A stretch of 64,000 nucleotides of DNA from an uncultured virus (IMG/VR IMGVR_UViG_3300015610_002171) (taxonomy: Duplodnaviria > Heunggongvirae > Uroviricota > Caudoviricetes). The DNA is taken from the IMG/VR virus record IMGVR_UViG_3300015610_002171. One strand, written 5' to 3'. The translations under genes were made by a program, and so were the position numbers. The first letter of the stretch is position 1. Each line of letters opens with the position of its first letter. The notes below the pieces were generated by a model. That model was not told where the DNA came from. It did not search any database and worked only from the letters and a program-made list of their open reading frames with translations. Positions 137 to 59,172 of this stretch are shown here, one piece after another.

Positions 137-439
137 TTGATACATTTTCACTCTTTTTATTTTTTTTAACCCAATTTTTCCTTCCCAAACCTTTCGTTTA
201 ATTTCTTTTCATTTAATTTTTTTGGTTCCGACACAACACGCGGTCAAATCCCTTGACGAATTCTCCTGTGGTTTCGATATGTTAGGAGCGAGGCATTGTG
301 AAAATAATTTGGGATANNGGAGAGTGTGCGGTGCAAGAGAGGCAGGGGAAGAAAGGGGAATAAACTAGAATTAAACGAGGATGGAGTGGGAGGGATTGCG
401 GTCGCGGGGCAGGGTGGTTATGGTGAAAAGTGGTGATAA

Positions 440-26261: not shown

Positions 26262-26531
26262 ATTTATTTTCTTACTTGTAAGAAAAAACGAATTTACAAT
26301 TGTTTAACATGCAAGCGGGAAATATCACGAAGTTCTATTTATTGTAAAAGTTGTGTTCCTAAAAAAACTAAAATCAATTGGCCTTCTAAAGAAGAACTTC
26401 AAAAATTGGTTTGGAATTCTCCAATAGAGAATCTTGCGAAAAATTTAGGTGTTTCGTCCCGCGCAATTCATAAAAAATGTAAAAAGTTACATATTGACAA
26501 ACCAAATCAAGGCTATTGGTTAAAACATTAA
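26262..26531 (+). pseudogene. Start-less zinc-ribbon + HTH fragment (HNH homing endonuclease C-terminus-like)
   Basis: Open frame CLTC..CKSC..WPSKEELQKLVW..LAKNLGVSSRAIHKKCKK..GYW; no ATG/GTG/TTG at its 5' end. Confidence 0.6.
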
Positions 26532-26671
26532 TTTAATAATTTTGTTTTTTTGAAGAATCCTTGTCTTAGAATTTAGACTCGAACTGTTCAAATTTAGGTT
26601 TGTGTTGCTCGGTCTCCGAGCTAAGCGGGAAGTGCCAGCAGTGTAGCCACGCCACAACCGCCGTCAACAGC

Positions 26672-27616
26672 TTATTTCTTCTCTATTAAACTGGAGATAA
26701 TTGCCTTTCCGCGTCTTTCAAGTTGCTTAAACTTAATCTTAAAAGATTCAGACTCGAAACCTCCAAACATTTTACTGTTTGCATAAATTTCAGCTAATCC
26801 TACAATCAAATGAGTTATGCAGTTTTTATTTTTTGAAAAATTCTCGACGCCAACATCTTTTAGAGTATGAATGATCATATCATTCCGAATCAATTCAGCT
26901 ACTTCTTTTTCATTTGGGAAAAGTTCTAAATATTTCTGAAAAGAATACTCTGCATGATTTGGAAAATGAGGTTTTCCTTCTTCGTCGGTTTCAAAACAAA
27001 ACGGCTTTCCAATATCATGAAAGACCGTATATTTTGTTAGTTTATATTCAGATGGCAACTTGCTTAAAATAAATTCTTTGTTCGGTTCGAACCAAGAAGG
27101 TAAAGGGAAGTTTTCTTTTACTGGTTTATTTTTAAGTTTTGGAATTACATAGCTGAATAAGTTATGGTGAACTTGTAATCCATGATCTAAAACAGAAACT
27201 CCTTTTGTTTGTTCAGTTGAAATCATTTTATCAACTGCGTCAAAAATAAGTTTGAGATTTAAAGGTTCTTTTGATAGTTTACCTGCTAGCGGCAAACCAG
27301 AACAAAGTCTCTTTGAGTTATCCGTTGGGATTAATGCAATGGCAGTCAAACTGTAACCGATATCAGGTTCAACAAATTCTACAAACTTATGATTTTCTTT
27401 TTGAAGTTTTTCTTTAAACTCAAATAGTTTTTCTTCGTTTTTTACGGCAACGACAACCAAAGAATTTGATCCCCATTTATTCCATTCTTCAAATTCTTTT
27501 TTATATTCTGAAGCAAACTCTGCAACAACGTGCGCTACTTGTGGGATTTGGTATTGAATACCTAAATCCTCTCTTGTGATGACATATAGTTTGTTTTGAT
27601 TATGGTTCTACAACAT
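26672..27616 (-). CDS. PTH2-type peptidyl-tRNA hydrolase + HD domain fusion, in-frame TAG at codon 3
   Basis: AGGA RBS, ATG TTG TAG, then KLYVITREDL..QVAHVVAEF..W..SLVVVAV..EPDIG..LTAIA (PTH2); C-terminal DHG..FHDIGK..HF..HA (HD). Confidence 0.8.
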
Positions 27617-28298
27617 TTTTTTGTTTCCTTTTTTTATTTTATGTTCTTTCTTATTCGATTGTCAGTTCTTTTACTGAAACCGAAAGATTTGATCCTTTTG
27701 CGATAAAAACTGTTCCATCAAATAATTCATATTTTGCCTTTTCTAGCGCCATTGTTTTATCGATAGCATAAACATCAATCATTTGTCGTTTTTTTGTAGA
27801 TTTCTCTGTGAAAACTACACGATAAAGTGTCTCTTTTTGCTTTTCTTTTGATTCCATTGCTATTTTATCACTTTTATTAAATCAGAATCTGACTCTTTTA
27901 TTCTTATTGTTTTTTTTATTTCTTTTTCTTTTGATAAAGAAATAAAATTTCCATTTTGGTCTTCTATTATTGATAGAACTTCTGTTTCCAATATAGTTTG
28001 GATTTTATATTCAAAATATATATCATTTTTGGCAAATGGATTTTTTAGTTTTTGGTCAGTTTCCAATACGATAACAGAGTTATCTGTCTCATCTAATTTC
28101 CAATATTTTGGTAGGTTTTTTACTTTAATTTTTTTCATCTTGTTTCTTTTTCATAAAATAAAACAATCATTTCAAAAATAATAAGCGCAACAAAAGAATT
28201 TATTATATCGAATTGAAAATATATTTTTCCAAAAAAAGCAAGAAGCAAGTTAAATAAGTTTATTATGCAAAATAGAATTATGAATTTAAGTAAATTTA

Positions 28299-48602: not shown

Positions 48603-50081
48603 ATGTCAACAAGACCAGTCCAAAAAATAAAATACTATCGAAGAGGATTTGCAACAAACAGTTCAAGCTCTCATTCTGTTTTATTATTTGAAGAAGATAT
48701 TAAGTCTTTGATTCAAGACTATGACCCTTGCAACGGTGAATATGGCTGGGGAGACTTCTCTCTTGTTTCCAAAGAATCGAAGATTAAATACCTAAAAGCG
48801 CAGATTGCTTCAGTATGGAGAAATACCACAAAACTACCAGAAGATTATGCAGACTATTATGTTGACCACCAATCTATTTGGGGTATTCTACCTGTTCCAA
48901 ATGAACTAGGAACAGAACCGCATCCAAAGTGGTTTAAAATATACGAAGATTGGATTTCTAATGATAAAATTGTTGTTTATGGCGGCAATGATAATGAAGA
49001 GCCATCTTTAACGCCGCCAACAAATACTAACTACAATCCAGTTTGTGCACCAAATTCGAAATCAAGAAGTAACTATGCCCCGTACAATCAGCCTGTTAAT
49101 TATATTGGACGACATGTAGAAGATGGAGATTATTTTTTAATGTTCGATACCATATCAGGTACAAAACTTAAAGTGAAGTTCTCCGAAGGGGAACTTCCGA
49201 ATAGTTCAGAGTATCCTGAACTTGTTGATTTAAAAATCACAGACTATTGCCCTTTTAATTGTGAATACTGTTATCAAGGGTCAACAACAAAAGGCAAGCA
49301 CGCCAAACTTGAAGCCATCAAAAAAACAATCGATATTTTAGCGGAGGCAAAGACACTGGAAATTGCAATCGGTGGTGGAGAACCAACACTCCATCCTGAT
49401 TTTCTTGAGATATTAAGATACGCAAAACAAAAAGGTGTTGTTCCAAACTTTACATCCAAAAACTATAAGATTTTAACAAACAGAGAAGCAGTTGAGACAA
49501 TTTTAGAATGCTGTGGTGCATTTGCATTTTCTGTTGATTCGGCAGAAGATGTAAAACAGATTTCATATTATCAAATGTATGCATCAAATATGTGTGACAT
49601 TAAACTAGAGCGAATTACACAAAAAACTGTAATTCAACATCCAGTAGGATCTTGTTCGAAAGAAGAATTTAAAAAAATCCTTACTCAAATTGGTTCACTA
49701 GAAGTGTCAAATGTTTTAACTTTACTTGGACACAAGACAACAGGTAGAGGAAATAAATCTTTGGTAAAAGCATCAAACGAAGATGTTTTACTTGCAGTAA
49801 GACTTCATAAAGTAAAAAACGCACGAGACCAACTGTTTATTAATGTTGATACATCGTTTGTAAAAGATCAAGAAAGAGAAATACGGACAATTCTTGGAAA
49901 TAATGTTTATGAAGCTACGATGTCTTCAAAAGATGGATTAACAAGTGTTTATGTTGATGCAGTAGAAGAAACTATTTCTGCTAGTTCTTACGAGCCTGAA
50001 CGCGGCCACCATAACATGAAACCTCTATATGGAAACCTTGAGGAGTTCCTTTCAACATGGAAGACTATACAAAAAAGCTAA
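48603..50081 (+). CDS. Radical SAM enzyme with N-terminal RxGFxTNSSS domain
   Basis: CPFNCEYC, GGGEPTLH; N-terminal RRGFATNSSSSHS. Confidence 0.9.
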   Translation: MSTRPVQKIKYYRRGFATNSSSSHSVLLFEEDIKSLIQDYDPCNGEYGWGDFSLVSKESKIKYLKAQIASVWRNTTKLPEDYADYYVDHQSIWGILPVPNELGTEPHPKWFKIYEDWISNDKIVVYGGNDNEEPSLTPPTNTNYNPVCAPNSKSRSNYAPYNQPVNYIGRHVEDGDYFLMFDTISGTKLKVKFSEGELPNSSEYPELVDLKITDYCPFNCEYCYQGSTTKGKHAKLEAIKKTIDILAEAKTLEIAIGGGEPTLHPDFLEILRYAKQKGVVPNFTSKNYKILTNREAVETILECCGAFAFSVDSAEDVKQISYYQMYASNMCDIKLERITQKTVIQHPVGSCSKEEFKKILTQIGSLEVSNVLTLLGHKTTGRGNKSLVKASNEDVLLAVRLHKVKNARDQLFINVDTSFVKDQEREIRTILGNNVYEATMSSKDGLTSVYVDAVEETISASSYEPERGHHNMKPLYGNLEEFLSTWKTIQKS

Positions 50082-53425: not shown

Positions 53426-53513
53426 GCGGAAATAAGGAAACTTTCTGTTTGCTGCGAAAACGCAGCTTTAAAGAAACTGAGTGTTACGGGTTCGAGTCCC
53501 GTTTTCCGCTCCA
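53426..53513 (+). ncRNA. tRNA-like RNA: Gly-type acceptor and T-arm, D/anticodon arms replaced
   Basis: GCGGAAA/TTTCCGC-T-CCA; ACGGG-TTCGAGT-CCCGT. Confidence 0.65.
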
Positions 53514-53806: not shown

Positions 53807-53878
53807 GCGAAGATAGCTCAACGGCAGAGCACGCCCAATAAGGTAGGTATGGTTGTTCAATTCAACCTCTTTGCGCCA
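53807..53878 (+). tRNA. tRNA-like gene with shortened anticodon arm (isotype undetermined)
   Basis: Good acceptor, D- and T-arms and CCA; anticodon arm incomplete. Confidence 0.6.
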
Positions 53879-58578: not shown

Positions 58579-58664
58579 ACTTATGTAGTGTAACGGGAGC
58601 ACAGCGGAAAAAGCATTGCGCGTTAGGGAACCCGCCAGTAAAGGTTCGAATCCTTTCATAAGTA
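58579..58664 (+). ncRNA. tRNA-like RNA with ~24-nt anticodon loop
   Basis: ACTTATG/CATAAGT, GTGT/GCAC D-stem, GCGG/CCGC stem, canonical T-arm. Confidence 0.7.
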
Positions 58665-58670
58665 AAGTTT

Positions 58671-58741
58671 GCCCTTTTAGTTCAACGGTAGAACGCTAGT
58701 TTCTAAAACTGGATGAATAGGTTCAATTCCTATAAAGGGCG
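58671..58741 (+). tRNA. Amber suppressor tRNA (CUA), tRNA-Trp-like body
   Basis: CTAGT-TTCTAAA-ACTGG, anticodon CTA at 58703-58705; G73. Confidence 0.8.
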
Positions 58742-59172
58742 CAAAATCAATGAAGTTTCAAGAATATGTGAAATACTCTAATTGGTTCTCAGGAAAGGCT
58801 GACTCTGATTTTGAGTTAAAATTTAAAATAAAAGAAATAAGCAACCTTTCTGCAGAAAAAGCATTTTTTAAAATTGACACACTTGGAGAAACACCAGAAA
58901 TTTCAAGTGCTGAAAAACAAAGTTTACTTTCGGCTTTAAAAGGTAAAGCTGCTTTTAACTTATGTATCAAACAAGTTTCTGAGCAAATTAAAATTGCTCA
59001 TAAAGAAAAATGGATTTGGATATTAGGAAACATTTCATTTGATGAAAAAATTAAAGATCTTATCTTGTATCAAGAAGTAATACAGAATTTATTAAATTGT
59101 GATAATCGACAACTTTTTTTGACAGCTTGGAAACAATCAAGAGTCGAAAATAATTTAAAGTAAAATAACAAA

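What the first reader, a model, noticed from the sequence alone, without database searches (positions are those of the whole stretch)
26672..27616. Peptidyl-tRNA hydrolase-HD fusion gated by an amber codon at position 3, with a CUA tRNA in the same genome
Seen: the ORF track starts this gene at 27460, but the frame continues upstream through the PTH2 N-terminus (NKLYVITREDL..QVAHVVAEF) to a clear RBS and ATG TTG TAG (ATG 27616-27614, TAG 27610-27608). There is no ATG between the TAG and the PTH2 N-terminal motifs, so a complete enzyme needs amber readthrough. The window also encodes a CUA-anticodon tRNA (58671-58741), while other genes are not fragmented by TAG. Established: ATG-x-stop minigenes cause peptidyl-tRNA drop-off, which is the substrate of Pth. 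Inference: this is a translational switch in which PTH2-HD is made only when the suppressor tRNA is present or RF1 termination fails, a phage translation-rescue circuit I do not know to be described.
Basis: partly seen in the sequence, partly recalled or inferred. Interest (0 to 1): 0.92.

Follow-up and report, generated by a model that had tools for sequence, protein, structure and literature searches.

The report
Suppressor-tRNA-gated phage PTH2-HD gene
A large wastewater phage begins the gene for a tRNA-end-cleaning enzyme with a two-codon mini-gene that ends in a UAG stop, so the enzyme can apparently be made only when the phage's own UAG-reading tRNA overrides that stop; the same design recurs in dozens of unrelated large phages and gives their puzzling 'suppressor' tRNAs a natural target.

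Summary
On the minus strand ATG TTG TAG (27616-27608) runs in frame into a 311-codon PTH2-like + HD gene. No ATG/GTG/TTG follows until TTG 27460, inside the PTH2 fold. A tRNA-CUA lies at 58671-58742. Contigs of three independent studies keep the TAG.

It is not a private mutation. A start codon, 0-3 sense codons and TAG precede this gene family in 15 of 17 other phage records (hosts in Bacteroidota, Proteobacteria, Actinobacteria). The same holds in 76 of 80 IMG/VR loci (55 of 59 distinct), there with mini-ORFs of 1-8 sense codons. All 10 gated genomes I scanned encode tRNA-CUA, often beside the gene and always on its strand.

The stop type covaries with the anticodon: one TAA gate with tRNA-UUA, a TGA gate with tRNA-UCA in Atu_ph07, and a TAG gate with tRNA-CUA in its sister Phosso. 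Separate HD genes carry their own TAG gate (12 of 14 contexts). Other genes do not exceed background.

Best reading (0.8): a dedicated suppressor-tRNA/stop-codon translational gate. Its purpose is inferred only.

Six literature searches found no description; the XacN1 paper says the targets of such tRNAs are unknown. This scan noted the same design earlier on another genome (e1-5680253).

The parts
26672..27616 (-). Whole gated gene: mini-ORF, amber codon, PTH2-like domain, HD domain, TAA stop
   Evidence: Sequence and translation. AlphaFold2 model of the 311 residues after the TAG has mean pLDDT 94.7.
27624..27630 (-). Purine-rich AAGGAAA stretch, Shine-Dalgarno-like, about 8 nt upstream of the mini-ORF ATG
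   Evidence: Read. Comparable GAGGA/AAGGAG/GGAGG motifs sit before the mini-ORF start in BF, Arash, XacN1, RsoM2USA, Myrna and Phosso. Function inferred.
27611..27616 (-). Mini-ORF sense codons ATG TTG (Met-Leu)
   Evidence: Mini-ORF peptides differ between relatives (MK, MT, MTH, ML and others), so the peptide itself is not conserved.
27608..27610 (-). In-frame amber codon TAG (the gate), followed by A (AAC)
   Evidence: Kept in independent contigs. Conserved in homologues. The base after TAG is A in 43, G in 10, C in 1 and T in 0 of 54 distinct loci.
27284..27607 (-). PTH2-like domain (residues 1-108 after the TAG)
   Evidence: Pfam PF01981 27.6 bits, residues 6-96. Foldseek matches 2zv3, 3erj, 1wn2, 1q7s and 1xty with TM(target) 0.66-0.73. 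VIA gives 1wn2 Z 14.2, rmsd 2.1 over 106 residues.
26675..27283 (-). HD-superfamily domain (residues 109-311), motifs FHDIGKP and HFPNHA
   Evidence: Pfam HD 16.8 bits, below the cut-off of 22. VIA gives 3wfo_A ('tRNA processing enzyme') Z 15.1, rmsd 3.3 over 168 residues (model 109-311), then HD hydrolases at Z 8-10.6. Motifs read.
27458..27460 (-). TTG that an ORF caller takes as start; it truncates the PTH2 fold
   Evidence: PHROG 14850 aligns only from residue 35 on, and the homologues' annotated CDSs are likewise truncated or missing.
58671..58742 (+). tRNA with CUA anticodon (amber suppressor), class I, elongator-type
   Evidence: ARAGORN. Rfam RF00005 68 bits. Structure G1:C72, with no three G:C pairs in the anticodon stem.

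Best explanation
The gene is a suppressor-tRNA-dependent translational gate. Ribosomes start at the ATG of a two-codon mini-ORF (Met-Leu) and meet UAG as the third codon. If release factor 1 acts, only a dipeptide is made. If the phage's own tRNA-CUA decodes the UAG, translation continues in frame into a 311-residue protein. That protein joins a PTH2-fold domain (peptidyl-/acyl-tRNA hydrolase-like) to an HD phosphohydrolase domain, whose closest structural match is the C-terminal region of a bacterial tRNA nucleotidyltransferase. The tRNA gene and the gated gene or genes form a conserved two-part module of large phages.

Shown by comparison: the gate is conserved, it is specific to PTH2-like and HD genes, it co-occurs with the cognate tRNA, and the stop type covaries with the anticodon.

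Inferred: read-through actually occurs and limits expression. The placement at codons 2-5 may make the inserted residue harmless and avoid truncated protein. Short nascent chains may also be poor release-factor substrates (recalled knowledge).

Inferred and weakest: the purpose. The gate probably ties production of a tRNA-3'-end hydrolase pair to the amount of functional, charged phage tRNA, as a timer or feedback.
For: (1) Anatomy.

(2) Conservation in 15 of 17 other phage records of the subfamily. These are pT24, Serratia BF, LR756500, LR756501, LR756504, Salmonella Arash, Myrna, HyRo; GAP32, LR745206, ME3, XacN1, RAS14, RsoM2USA; and LR756511.

(3) IMG/VR survey of 80 loci. The automated walk gave TAG 75, TAA 3, TGA 2. 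There are 59 distinct sequences, 54 with TAG, and all 54 have an ATG 1-8 sense codons upstream. In 53 of 54 there is no ATG/GTG/TTG before the domain. L151 proved TAG-gated on inspection.

(4) tRNA-CUA was found by ARAGORN in 10 of 10 gated genomes scanned: window, pT24, BF, Arash, Myrna, HyRo, ME3, GAP32, RAS14, LR756511. It is also reported for XacN1 and RsoM2USA (papers). It lies within 6 kb in 37 of 54 distinct IMG/VR loci, on the gene's strand in all 37. In 10 loci it sits 39-59 nt, and in 13 loci 39-191 nt, upstream of the mini-ORF.

(5) Covariation. L143 has ATG AAA GAA ACA TAA, and its 675-kb contig has tRNA-UUA and no CUA among 40 tRNAs; relatives L170/L172/L176 have the same mini-ORF with TAG, and L170/L172 carry tRNA-CUA in the locus. 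Atu_ph07 has a TGA gate and tRNA-UCA with no CUA. Its sister phage Phosso (PTH2 72% identical) has a TAG gate and two tRNA-CUA with no UCA.

(6) Extra in-frame stops inside gated PTH2 genes are all TAG: L004, L119, L146/L150, L151. The BF HD gene has one at codon 47.

(7) Specificity. Separate HD genes have their own gate in 12 of 14 distinct contexts. Gate-like patterns before other ORFs are at background: TAA 23 of 792, TGA 12 of 367, other TAG 16, against 49 PTH2 and 11 HD. Eight of 9 other PF01981 paralogues start ordinarily.

(8) The base after TAG is A in 43, G in 10, C in 1, T in 0. This matches the recalled context rule for efficient amber suppression.

(9) In the window no near-cognate start (NTG/ATN) lies in the 8 codons between the TAG and the first strand.
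Against: There is no protein, ribosome-profiling or reporter evidence, so read-through is inferred.

Thirty-nine of 54 distinct loci have ATT, ATA or ATC directly after the TAG, and mycobacteriophages have GTG there. Re-initiation at that codon after termination cannot be excluded for those loci.

The gate is dispensable. RaK2, Hallingskeid, L164, L190 and L191 have ordinary ATG starts, and L190 still has a tRNA-CUA nearby.

RaK2 and Hallingskeid have no tRNA-CUA by ARAGORN. Each does have one weak Rfam tRNA hit with an oversized anticodon loop that contains CTA, so that negative correlation is not clean.

HyRo's tRNA-CUA scores 26 bits, below Rfam's cut-off of 29.

Seventeen of 54 distinct gated loci show no tRNA-CUA within 6 kb. 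In the window the tRNA is 31 kb away on the other strand.

Loci are phylogenetically related: there are 35 clusters at 70% identity and 11 at 50%.

The amino acid carried by the tRNA is unknown.
Confidence: 0.8

Rival explanations
1. Termination-reinitiation. The mini-ORF is translated and terminated at TAG, and the same ribosome re-starts at the adjacent near-cognate codon (ATT, ATA or GTG). The suppressor tRNA is not needed and is linked for another reason.
For: The codon after TAG is ATT in 34, ATA in 4 and ATC in 1 of 54 distinct loci. GTG follows the TAG in Myrna and HyRo and is their annotated start. AUU is a known bacterial start codon in infC (recalled).
Against: The window has AAC after the TAG and no NTG/ATN codon before the first strand; Arash, BF and GAP32 have AAC or AAT. 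Re-initiation would work with any stop, yet TAG is used in 54 of 59 distinct loci from the AT-rich loci surveyed, where TAA precedes 792, TGA 367 and TAG 359 of the ORFs. The stop type also tracks the anticodon in three switches. Internal TAGs deep inside the PTH2 and HD genes cannot be bridged by re-initiation.
Confidence: 0.08
2. Leader-peptide type control. The mini-ORF is a separate regulatory leader whose translation or stalling modulates an independent downstream initiation site. It senses RF1 or peptidyl-tRNA drop-off rather than being read through.
For: Start-X-stop minigenes are known to cause peptidyl-tRNA drop-off, the substrate of Pth (recalled: lambda bar minigenes). The earlier scan note e1-5680253 compared the design with leader-peptide attenuators. 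A second ATG TTT TAG mini-ORF with a strong SD lies upstream of HyRo gene 146.
Against: No canonical start lies between the stop and the domain in 53 of 54 distinct loci. The stop is always in frame with, and contiguous to, the enzyme ORF. The anticodon covariation is not predicted by this model.
Confidence: 0.06
3. Genome-wide reassignment of TAG to a sense codon (code-15-like), as in crAss-like and Lak phages. The gene would then be merely one of many with in-frame TAG.
For: The phage encodes a tRNA-CUA. Some homologues have two TAGs in the gene. Recoded phages are documented (PMC9523058 and PMC10879173, abstracts in listings).
Against: In the window TAG ends 10 of 105 chosen ORFs. TAG-as-sense gives a smaller ORF gain than TGA or TAA. 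Read-through extensions of TAG-ended ORFs are short: median 12.5 codons, maximum 44, like TAA and TGA. No other long start-less ORF is gated. In 80 loci the other ORFs are at background. The XacN1 authors found nothing beyond 18 amber stops.
Confidence: 0.02
4. Broken gene or artefact: a private nonsense mutation, pseudogene or assembly error.
For: Annotators treated homologues as truncated or absent genes.
Against: The TAG is present in contigs of three independent studies. It is conserved across phages of three bacterial phyla while the mini-ORF sequence varies. The ORF after the TAG is intact and folds with pLDDT 94.7.
Confidence: 0.01

Closest known systems
Stop-codon recoding in crAss-like and Lak phages through phage suppressor tRNAs (Borges et al. 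2022, recalled and not seen here; PMC9523058 and PMC10879173, abstracts in search listings)
   Same: A phage-encoded suppressor tRNA decodes in-frame TAG in phage genes while the host uses the standard code. It has been proposed as a way to time expression.
   Different: There, TAG is reassigned across many (late) genes and is no longer a terminator. Here the genome keeps TAG as a stop. Only one small gene set (PTH2-like, HD) carries the codon, almost always at codons 2-5, and the tRNA often sits next to the gene.
prfB (RF2) autoregulation by an early in-frame UGA (recalled textbook case)
   Same: An early in-frame stop in a translation-factor gene makes synthesis depend on the outcome of a competition at the A site.
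   Different: prfB escapes by +1 frameshifting and senses its own product. Here escape is in frame and needs a dedicated tRNA. Whether the product feeds back is unknown.
Lambda bar minigenes and peptidyl-tRNA drop-off (recalled)
   Same: SD + ATG + one codon + stop; such minigenes release peptidyl-tRNA, the substrate of Pth.
   Different: bar minigenes stand alone and are toxic in Pth-deficient cells. Here the minigene is fused in frame to a PTH2-like enzyme and always ends in the stop matched by a phage tRNA. Drop-off was not tested.
Archaeal/eukaryotic Pth2 (PF01981; PDB 2zv3, 1wn2, 3erj, 1xty, 1q7s)
   Same: Same fold. A profile of the phage family hits Pth2 chains (2zv3 E 6e-11). The conserved His and Thr positions are kept.
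   Different: Weak sequence score (27.6 bits). The two-residue stretch that holds the GK lysine is absent, and Glu replaces the Asp in the alignment. Activity unknown.
C-terminal region of bacterial class II tRNA nucleotidyltransferase (3wfo) and HD phosphohydrolases; the E. coli Cca HD domain has 2',3'-cyclic phosphodiesterase and phosphatase activity (recalled)
   Same: Best structural match of residues 109-311 (Z 15.1). An HD motif is present. The context is tRNA 3' ends.
   Different: There is no nucleotidyltransferase head. Pfam HD is below its cut-off. The substrate is unknown.
   Same: It describes a UAG-containing tiny leader before a Pth2-like operon in a standard-code large phage, about thirty loci, with the phage tRNA as key.
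   Different: It is an AI note on other DNA. Here the design is tested independently, extended to PTH2-HD fusions, separate HD genes and a second PTH2 subfamily, and supported by anticodon/stop covariation.

Membership tests
PTH2 (PF01981, peptidyl-tRNA hydrolase 2) | Sequence match above Pfam's gathering score | tested here: met
   27.6 bits against a cut-off of 23, residues 6-96. The NCBIfam Pth2 equivalog scores only 23.8 against a cut-off of 126, so it is not an equivalog.
PTH2 (PF01981, peptidyl-tRNA hydrolase 2) | Pth2 alpha/beta fold | tested here: met
   Foldseek: 2zv3, 3erj, 1wn2, 1q7s and 1xty, TM(target) 0.66-0.73, rmsd 2.7-3.7. VIA: 1wn2 Z 14.2, rmsd 2.1, 106 residues aligned.
PTH2 (PF01981, peptidyl-tRNA hydrolase 2) | Catalytic Lys, Asp and Thr (residue roles recalled from work on S. 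solfataricus Pth2, not from a call) | tested here: inconclusive
   In the profile alignment to 2zv3, the GK stretch falls in a gap of the phage family, Glu80 aligns with the Asp, and Thr88 and His26 are kept.
PTH2 (PF01981, peptidyl-tRNA hydrolase 2) | Hydrolysis of peptidyl-tRNA | not testable with these tools
   Needs an enzyme assay.
HD phosphohydrolase superfamily (PF01966) | Sequence match above Pfam's gathering score | tested here: not met
   16.8 bits against a cut-off of 22.
HD phosphohydrolase superfamily (PF01966) | HD-domain helical fold with an H...HD...D metal site | tested here: met
   VIA: 3wfo Z 15.1, PhnZ 4n71 Z 10.6, and PgpH, YfbR, OxsA and others at Z 7.6-8.8 over model residues about 110-307. 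FHDIGKP and HFPNHA are read. Metal binding itself was not tested.
Programmed in-frame stop-codon read-through by a cognate suppressor tRNA | In-frame stop with a conserved coding frame on its 3' side and no alternative start | tested here: met
   In 53 of 54 distinct loci there is no ATG/GTG/TTG before the domain.
Programmed in-frame stop-codon read-through by a cognate suppressor tRNA | A cognate suppressor tRNA is encoded by the same genome | tested here: met
   Window. 10 of 10 gated genomes scanned.
Programmed in-frame stop-codon read-through by a cognate suppressor tRNA | Stop type and anticodon change together | tested here: met
   TAA/UUA; TGA/UCA against TAG/CUA in the sister phages Atu_ph07 and Phosso.
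Programmed in-frame stop-codon read-through by a cognate suppressor tRNA | Full-length protein with a residue at the stop position | not testable with these tools
   Needs proteomics or a reporter.
Genome-wide TAG reassignment (code 15-like) | TAG no longer ends genes and interrupts many genes | tested here: not met
Initiator-type tRNA-CUA starting at UAG | 1:72 mismatch and three G:C pairs at the base of the anticodon stem (features recalled) | tested here: not met
   The window tRNA has G1:C72 and anticodon stem C-G, U-G, A-U, G-C, U-A. An ATG lies upstream of the TAG in 54 of 54 distinct loci.

The most novel reading that the evidence does not exclude
The tRNA, the gate and the PTH2-like/HD enzymes form a self-contained feedback device. 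The enzymes act on the suppressor tRNA itself, or on the acyl-/peptidyl-tRNAs that suppression and early drop-off create. Suppressor activity would then set the level of its own antagonist or recycler. This would be a natural orthogonal tRNA/stop-codon switch that measures the state of the termination and tRNA-recycling machinery of the infected cell, and that has moved between phages of at least three bacterial phyla while swapping amber, ochre and opal versions.
Probability: 0.25. Interest if true: 0.95.

Novelty: new variant of a known kind. Interest (0 to 1): 0.86.

Why it matters
Suppressor tRNAs in standard-code jumbo phages have had no known target. The XacN1 paper states this outright (PMC5852040, passages), and the RsoM2USA and Atu_ph07 papers only guess. 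A conserved gate of one to a few codons before PTH2-like and HD genes supplies a target.

The gate explains systematic mis-annotation. The gene is missing in BF and RsoM2USA and truncated in pT24, Arash, Atu_ph07 and Phosso. PHROG 14850 begins at residue 35.

It is also a minimal natural example of a dedicated tRNA/stop-codon expression switch, with amber, ochre and opal versions. That is of interest for phage gene regulation, for translation quality control during infection, and as a template for orthogonal switches. Finally, it links a PTH2-fold hydrolase and an HD domain resembling that of tRNA nucleotidyltransferase, which suggests an undescribed tRNA 3'-end recycling or repair activity.

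Tried and rejected
No whole genome is held for the window. Megablast of 3 kb against the phage collection found nothing.

The search for related loci with the single protein found no relative in IMG/VR. The 15-sequence alignment A1 was too divergent for a scan, so the 5-sequence A2 was used. A4 gave one hit there, a 425,361-bp contig filed as a Pacearchaeota MAG.

Amino-acid identity of the tRNA-CUA: pairwise identities to other phage tRNAs were inconclusive. The window's tRNA is nearest a tRNA-Arg(UCU) of BF at 0.74, whereas those of pT24, Arash, BF, Myrna and HyRo are mostly nearest each other at 0.72-0.77.

I first thought the two ORFs upstream (27860-28138 and 27651-27857) were in frame across a TAG. 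They are 2 nt out of frame, and the extension is 14 codons. I also thought L112 had a TAG at the PTH2-HD junction. The frames differ, and the HD there is a separate overlapping ORF.

The GC-rich stretch after the gene folds only marginally better than shuffles (z -1.96), and no Rfam family other than tRNA reached threshold in the window.

The RNA-library run X16 holds a ~96% identical contig over the gene, but contigs cannot show transcription. Its differences beyond 27287 were not listed, so its TAG was not checked.

The search of earlier findings by sequence and by place gave nothing. HyRo's GC-rich genome gave too many spurious ORFs for the gate scan to be informative.

Literature: searches found no paper describing a stop-codon gate on phage PTH2 or HD genes. 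Subscription-only papers and supplements were not searched.
Full report
**1. The observation**

The minus strand reads ATG (27616-27614), TTG, TAG (27610-27608). It then continues for 311 sense codons to TAA at 26674-26672. The first ATG/GTG/TTG after the TAG is the TTG at 27460, 49 codons downstream.

Pfam PTH2 (PF01981) matches residues 6-96 counted from the codon after the TAG (27.6 bits, cut-off 23). HD (PF01966) matches residues 190-244 weakly (16.8 bits, cut-off 22). The ORF-caller start would therefore delete the first strand and two helices of the PTH2 fold (model). An AAGGAAA stretch lies about 8 nt before the ATG.

A tRNA with anticodon CUA lies at 58671-58742 on the plus strand and scores 68 bits in Rfam.

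The window is 33.6% GC and uses the standard code:
- TAG ends 10 of 105 greedily chosen ORFs.
- Reading TAG as sense lengthens ORFs less than doing so for TGA or TAA.
- Read-through extensions of TAG-ended ORFs are short, with a median of 12.5 and a maximum of 44 codons.
- Among 165 stop-to-stop ORFs of 80 codons or more, only this one combines an ATG-mini-ORF-TAG with a long stretch lacking a start.

Contigs from independent studies keep the sequence. X7 and X8 span 26400-27900 with four differences, none at 27608-27616. X12 covers 27298-27900 with none. These are contigs, not raw reads.

**2. It is not private**

tblastn against 50,697 phage records found the fused or split gene in jumbo and large phages. 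I read the upstream DNA of 17 records of this divergent PTH2-like subfamily. Fifteen carry a start codon, 0-3 sense codons and TAG, in frame and directly before the gene.

| Phage | Leader |
|---|---|
| pT24 | ATG AAA TAG |
| Serratia BF | ATG ACG CAC TAG |
| LR756500 | ATG AAG TAG |
| LR756501 | ATG TCG TAG |
| LR756504 | ATG ACA TAG |
| Salmonella Arash | ATG CTG TAG |
| Myrna | GTG TAG |
| HyRo | ATG TAG |
| GAP32 | ATG GCA CAA TAG |
| LR745206 | ATG AAC AAT TAG |
| Acinetobacter ME3 | ATG ACT TAG |
| XacN1 | ATG AAG TAG |
| RAS14 | ATG AAG TAG |
| RsoM2USA | ATG TTG TAG |
| LR756511 | ATG ACT CAC TAG |

In XacN1 and RAS14 the domain order is HD then PTH2, and the gate is still at codon 3 of the fused gene.

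Two records are exceptions. RaK2 has an ordinary ATG, and Hallingskeid has the domain at the C-terminus of a longer protein.

Annotators missed or truncated the gene in pT24, BF, Arash and RsoM2USA. PHROG 14850 aligns only from residue 35.

**3. Wider survey**

An alignment of five sequences (A2) retrieved 80 IMG/VR loci with 6-kb flanks. An automated walk upstream from each match gave TAG in 75, TAA in 3 and TGA in 2.

After removing identical sequences there are 59 distinct genes, and 54 of them have TAG:
- All 54 have an ATG 1-8 sense codons upstream. The lengths are 1 in one locus, 2 in 35, 3 in 12, 4 in three, 7 in two and 8 in one.
- In 53 of 54 there is no ATG/GTG/TTG between the TAG and the domain.
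- The mini-peptides vary (MK, MT, MKN, MTH, MSL, ML and others).

On inspection L151, counted as TAA, also has ATG AAT AAT TAG directly before the domain. That makes 55 of 59 distinct, or 76 of 80 loci. L143 has a TAA gate. L164, L190 and L191 start with ordinary ATGs.

Clustering gives 35 groups at 70% identity (30 with TAG) and 11 at 50% (7 with TAG), so the loci are related and not independent.

The window's closest relatives, L112/L113 (71% identical), have ATG ACT CAC TAG. The stop is kept while the mini-ORF differs.

**4. Link to the tRNA**

ARAGORN found a CUA tRNA in every gated genome whose tRNA regions I scanned, 10 of 10:
- the window;
- pT24, BF, Arash, Myrna and HyRo;
- ME3 (also annotated in the record);
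- GAP32, RAS14 and LR756511.

HyRo's scores only 26 bits in Rfam. XacN1 and RsoM2USA are reported to have CUA tRNAs (passages). I did not scan LR756500, LR756501, LR756504 or LR745206.

In Arash, Myrna, HyRo and ME3 the tRNA lies 130-460 nt from the gene.

In IMG/VR, 37 of 54 distinct gated loci have a tRNA-CUA within the 6-kb flanks. All 37 are on the gene's strand. In 10 loci the tRNA sits 39-59 nt, and in 13 loci 39-191 nt, upstream of the mini-ORF ATG; in one locus it sits 40 nt downstream of the gene's stop. Seventeen have none in the flanks. In the window the tRNA is 31 kb away on the other strand.

RaK2 and Hallingskeid, which lack the gate, have 8 and 7 tRNAs by ARAGORN and no CUA. Each has one weak Rfam hit with an oversized anticodon loop containing CTA, so this negative case is ambiguous.

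**5. Covariation**

Three changes of stop type are matched by the anticodon.

- **Ochre.** L143 reads ATG AAA GAA ACA TAA. Its 675,678-bp contig has 40 tRNAs by ARAGORN, with one UUA and no CUA. Relatives L170, L172 and L176 have the same mini-ORF ending in TAG, and L170 and L172 carry a tRNA-CUA.
- **Opal.** In Agrobacterium phage Atu_ph07 a second, more canonical PTH2 (Pfam 74 bits) is preceded by ATG ATT GGC GAA CAC TTT TGA, followed by 31 codons without a canonical start, 20 of them before the domain. Its annotated CDS begins at a Met inside the domain. Its 30 tRNAs include UCA and no CUA, as its paper says.
- **Amber in the sister phage.** Sinorhizobium phage Phosso has a PTH2 72% identical to Atu_ph07's. 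Its leader is ATG AAG TAT TAG, and it has two tRNA-CUA and no UCA among 58 tRNAs.

Additional in-frame stops inside gated genes are all TAG: LR756501, L119, L146/L150 and L151, and the BF HD gene at codon 47.

**6. Specificity**

Eight of nine other PF01981 matches in XacN1, Atu_ph07, LR756511, RaK2 and Hallingskeid have ordinary starts. The ninth is the Atu_ph07 opal case.

An HD-like gene occurs in 24 of 80 IMG/VR loci, always on the same strand. Four are fused behind the PTH2 gate. Of 14 distinct separate HD contexts, 12 have their own ATG + 1-7 codons + TAG.

Across distinct ORFs of 80 codons or more in the 80 loci, I counted the pattern 'ATG within four codons upstream of the stop and no start in the first five codons'.

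| Preceding stop | ORFs with that stop | ORFs showing the pattern |
|---|---|---|
| TAA | 792 | 23 others, plus L143 |
| TGA | 367 | 12 |
| TAG | 359 | 49 PTH2, 11 HD, 16 others |

One of the 16 other TAG cases is an HD fragment. The gate is therefore a property of the PTH2-like and HD genes.

**7. Mechanistic reading**

Initiation at the mini-ORF ATG is supported by Shine-Dalgarno-like motifs placed for that ATG in proteobacterial, actinobacterial and rhizobial phages.

The base after TAG is A in 43, G in 10, C in 1 and T in 0 of 54. This agrees with the context rule for efficient amber suppression as I recall it (purine, especially A, after UAG). That rule comes from memory, not from a call.

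The window's tRNA is elongator-like: G1:C72, with no run of three G:C pairs in the anticodon stem. This, together with the conserved ATG, argues against UAG-initiated translation.

The main rival is re-initiation at the codon after the stop, which is ATT, ATA or ATC in 39 of 54 loci and GTG in mycobacteriophages. It cannot be excluded for those loci. It explains neither the near-exclusive use of TAG in the AT-rich loci surveyed, nor the anticodon covariation, nor the internal TAGs, nor the window itself (AAC after the TAG, no near-cognate start before the first strand).

**8. The enzyme**

An AlphaFold2 model built on 62 natural sequences has mean pLDDT 94.7.

Residues 2-108 match archaeal and human Pth2. 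Foldseek gives 2zv3, 3erj, 1wn2, 1q7s and 1xty, and VIA gives 1wn2 at Z 14.2. A profile of the family hits Pth2 chains (2zv3 E 6e-11). However, the GK stretch of canonical Pth2 falls in a gap, and Glu80 aligns with the Asp. Peptidyl-tRNA hydrolase activity is therefore plausible but unproven.

Residues 109-311 best match the C-terminal region of a 'tRNA processing enzyme', 3wfo (Z 15.1). I recall this as a class II tRNA nucleotidyltransferase. Next come HD hydrolases and the HD-like domain of GlyRS beta. Together with the FHDIGKP motif, this suggests a pair of activities on tRNA 3' ends. That is inference.

**9. Purpose**

This part is inferred. The repeated loss of gate and tRNA together, and the tight linkage, suggest the tRNA exists mainly for this gate. 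The gate could work as a timer or as a feedback on suppressor or tRNA-recycling activity.

**10. Novelty**

Six full-text searches found no description of the gate.
- The XacN1 paper says in-silico read-through of 18 amber stops found no target (passages).
- The jumbo-phage overview PMC7824862 lists PTH2 under RNA repair and never mentions suppressors (passages).
- Borges et al. 2022 is recalled, not seen.
- Supplements and subscription journals were not searched.

This scan noted the same design earlier on another genome (e1-5680253). My tests are independent of that note. In 185,579 species genomes the only hit was a 425-kb contig that looks like a mis-binned phage.

Noticed in passing
window 26600-26671 (minus strand, just after the gene's TAA): A GC-rich ~70-nt stretch in a 33.6% GC window with a GCUCGG-AGA-CCGAGC hairpin but no U run. 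It folds only marginally better than shuffles (z -1.96). An 11-nt deletion at 26629 occurs in one marine-metagenome contig.
   Followed up: partly
window 58579-58664, 53807-53875, 53426-53510: Rfam finds three tRNA-like hits that ARAGORN did not list, one directly upstream of the tRNA-CUA.
   Followed up: no
window 317-318 and 699-719: Two runs of N.
   Followed up: no
L002 (Serratia phage BF) 1447-1449: The separate HD gene has an in-frame TAG at codon 47, so both genes of the pair need suppression there. The PTH2-like ORF is not annotated at all.
   Followed up: partly
RaK2 record 195541-195616; Hallingskeid record 49276-49358: The two phages whose PTH2-like gene has no gate lack a tRNA-CUA by ARAGORN. 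Each has a weak Rfam tRNA hit (30 and 37 bits) with an oversized anticodon loop containing CTA, possibly a decayed suppressor.
   Followed up: partly
HyRo record about 91244-91252: A second mini-ORF, ATG TTT TAG, with a strong GGGAGGTG Shine-Dalgarno lies in the leader of gene 146, just upstream of the gated PTH2 gene.
   Followed up: no
L247 (genome contigs) and L170 (IMG/VR): A 425,361-bp contig filed as a 'Candidatus Pacearchaeota' MAG has the same length as the IMG/VR huge-phage contig of L170 and carries the phage gene. It is probably a mis-binned phage.
   Followed up: no
L112/L113 6294-6897: In the closest relatives of the window (PTH2 71% identical) the HD part is a separate ORF. It overlaps the PTH2 3' end in another frame and is split by a frame change near its C-terminus.
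   Followed up: partly
L050 (XacN1), L055 (RAS14): The domain order is reversed (HD then PTH2) in Xanthomonas and Stenotrophomonas phages, and the TAG gate stays at codon 3 of the fused gene. The gate therefore belongs to the gene start, not to the PTH2 domain.
   Followed up: yes
RAS14 record 302428-302502; L159 7719-7813: ARAGORN calls odd tRNAs with a UUA anticodon (75 and 95 nt) in two TAG-gated phages. Their reality was not checked.
   Followed up: no
window 26400-27900 in public runs: Near-identical sequence occurs in wastewater, activated-sludge and bioreactor metagenomes of several studies, and at 0.87-0.91 word share in two marine-labelled runs. A ~96% identical variant is in a metatranscriptome library.
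   Followed up: partly
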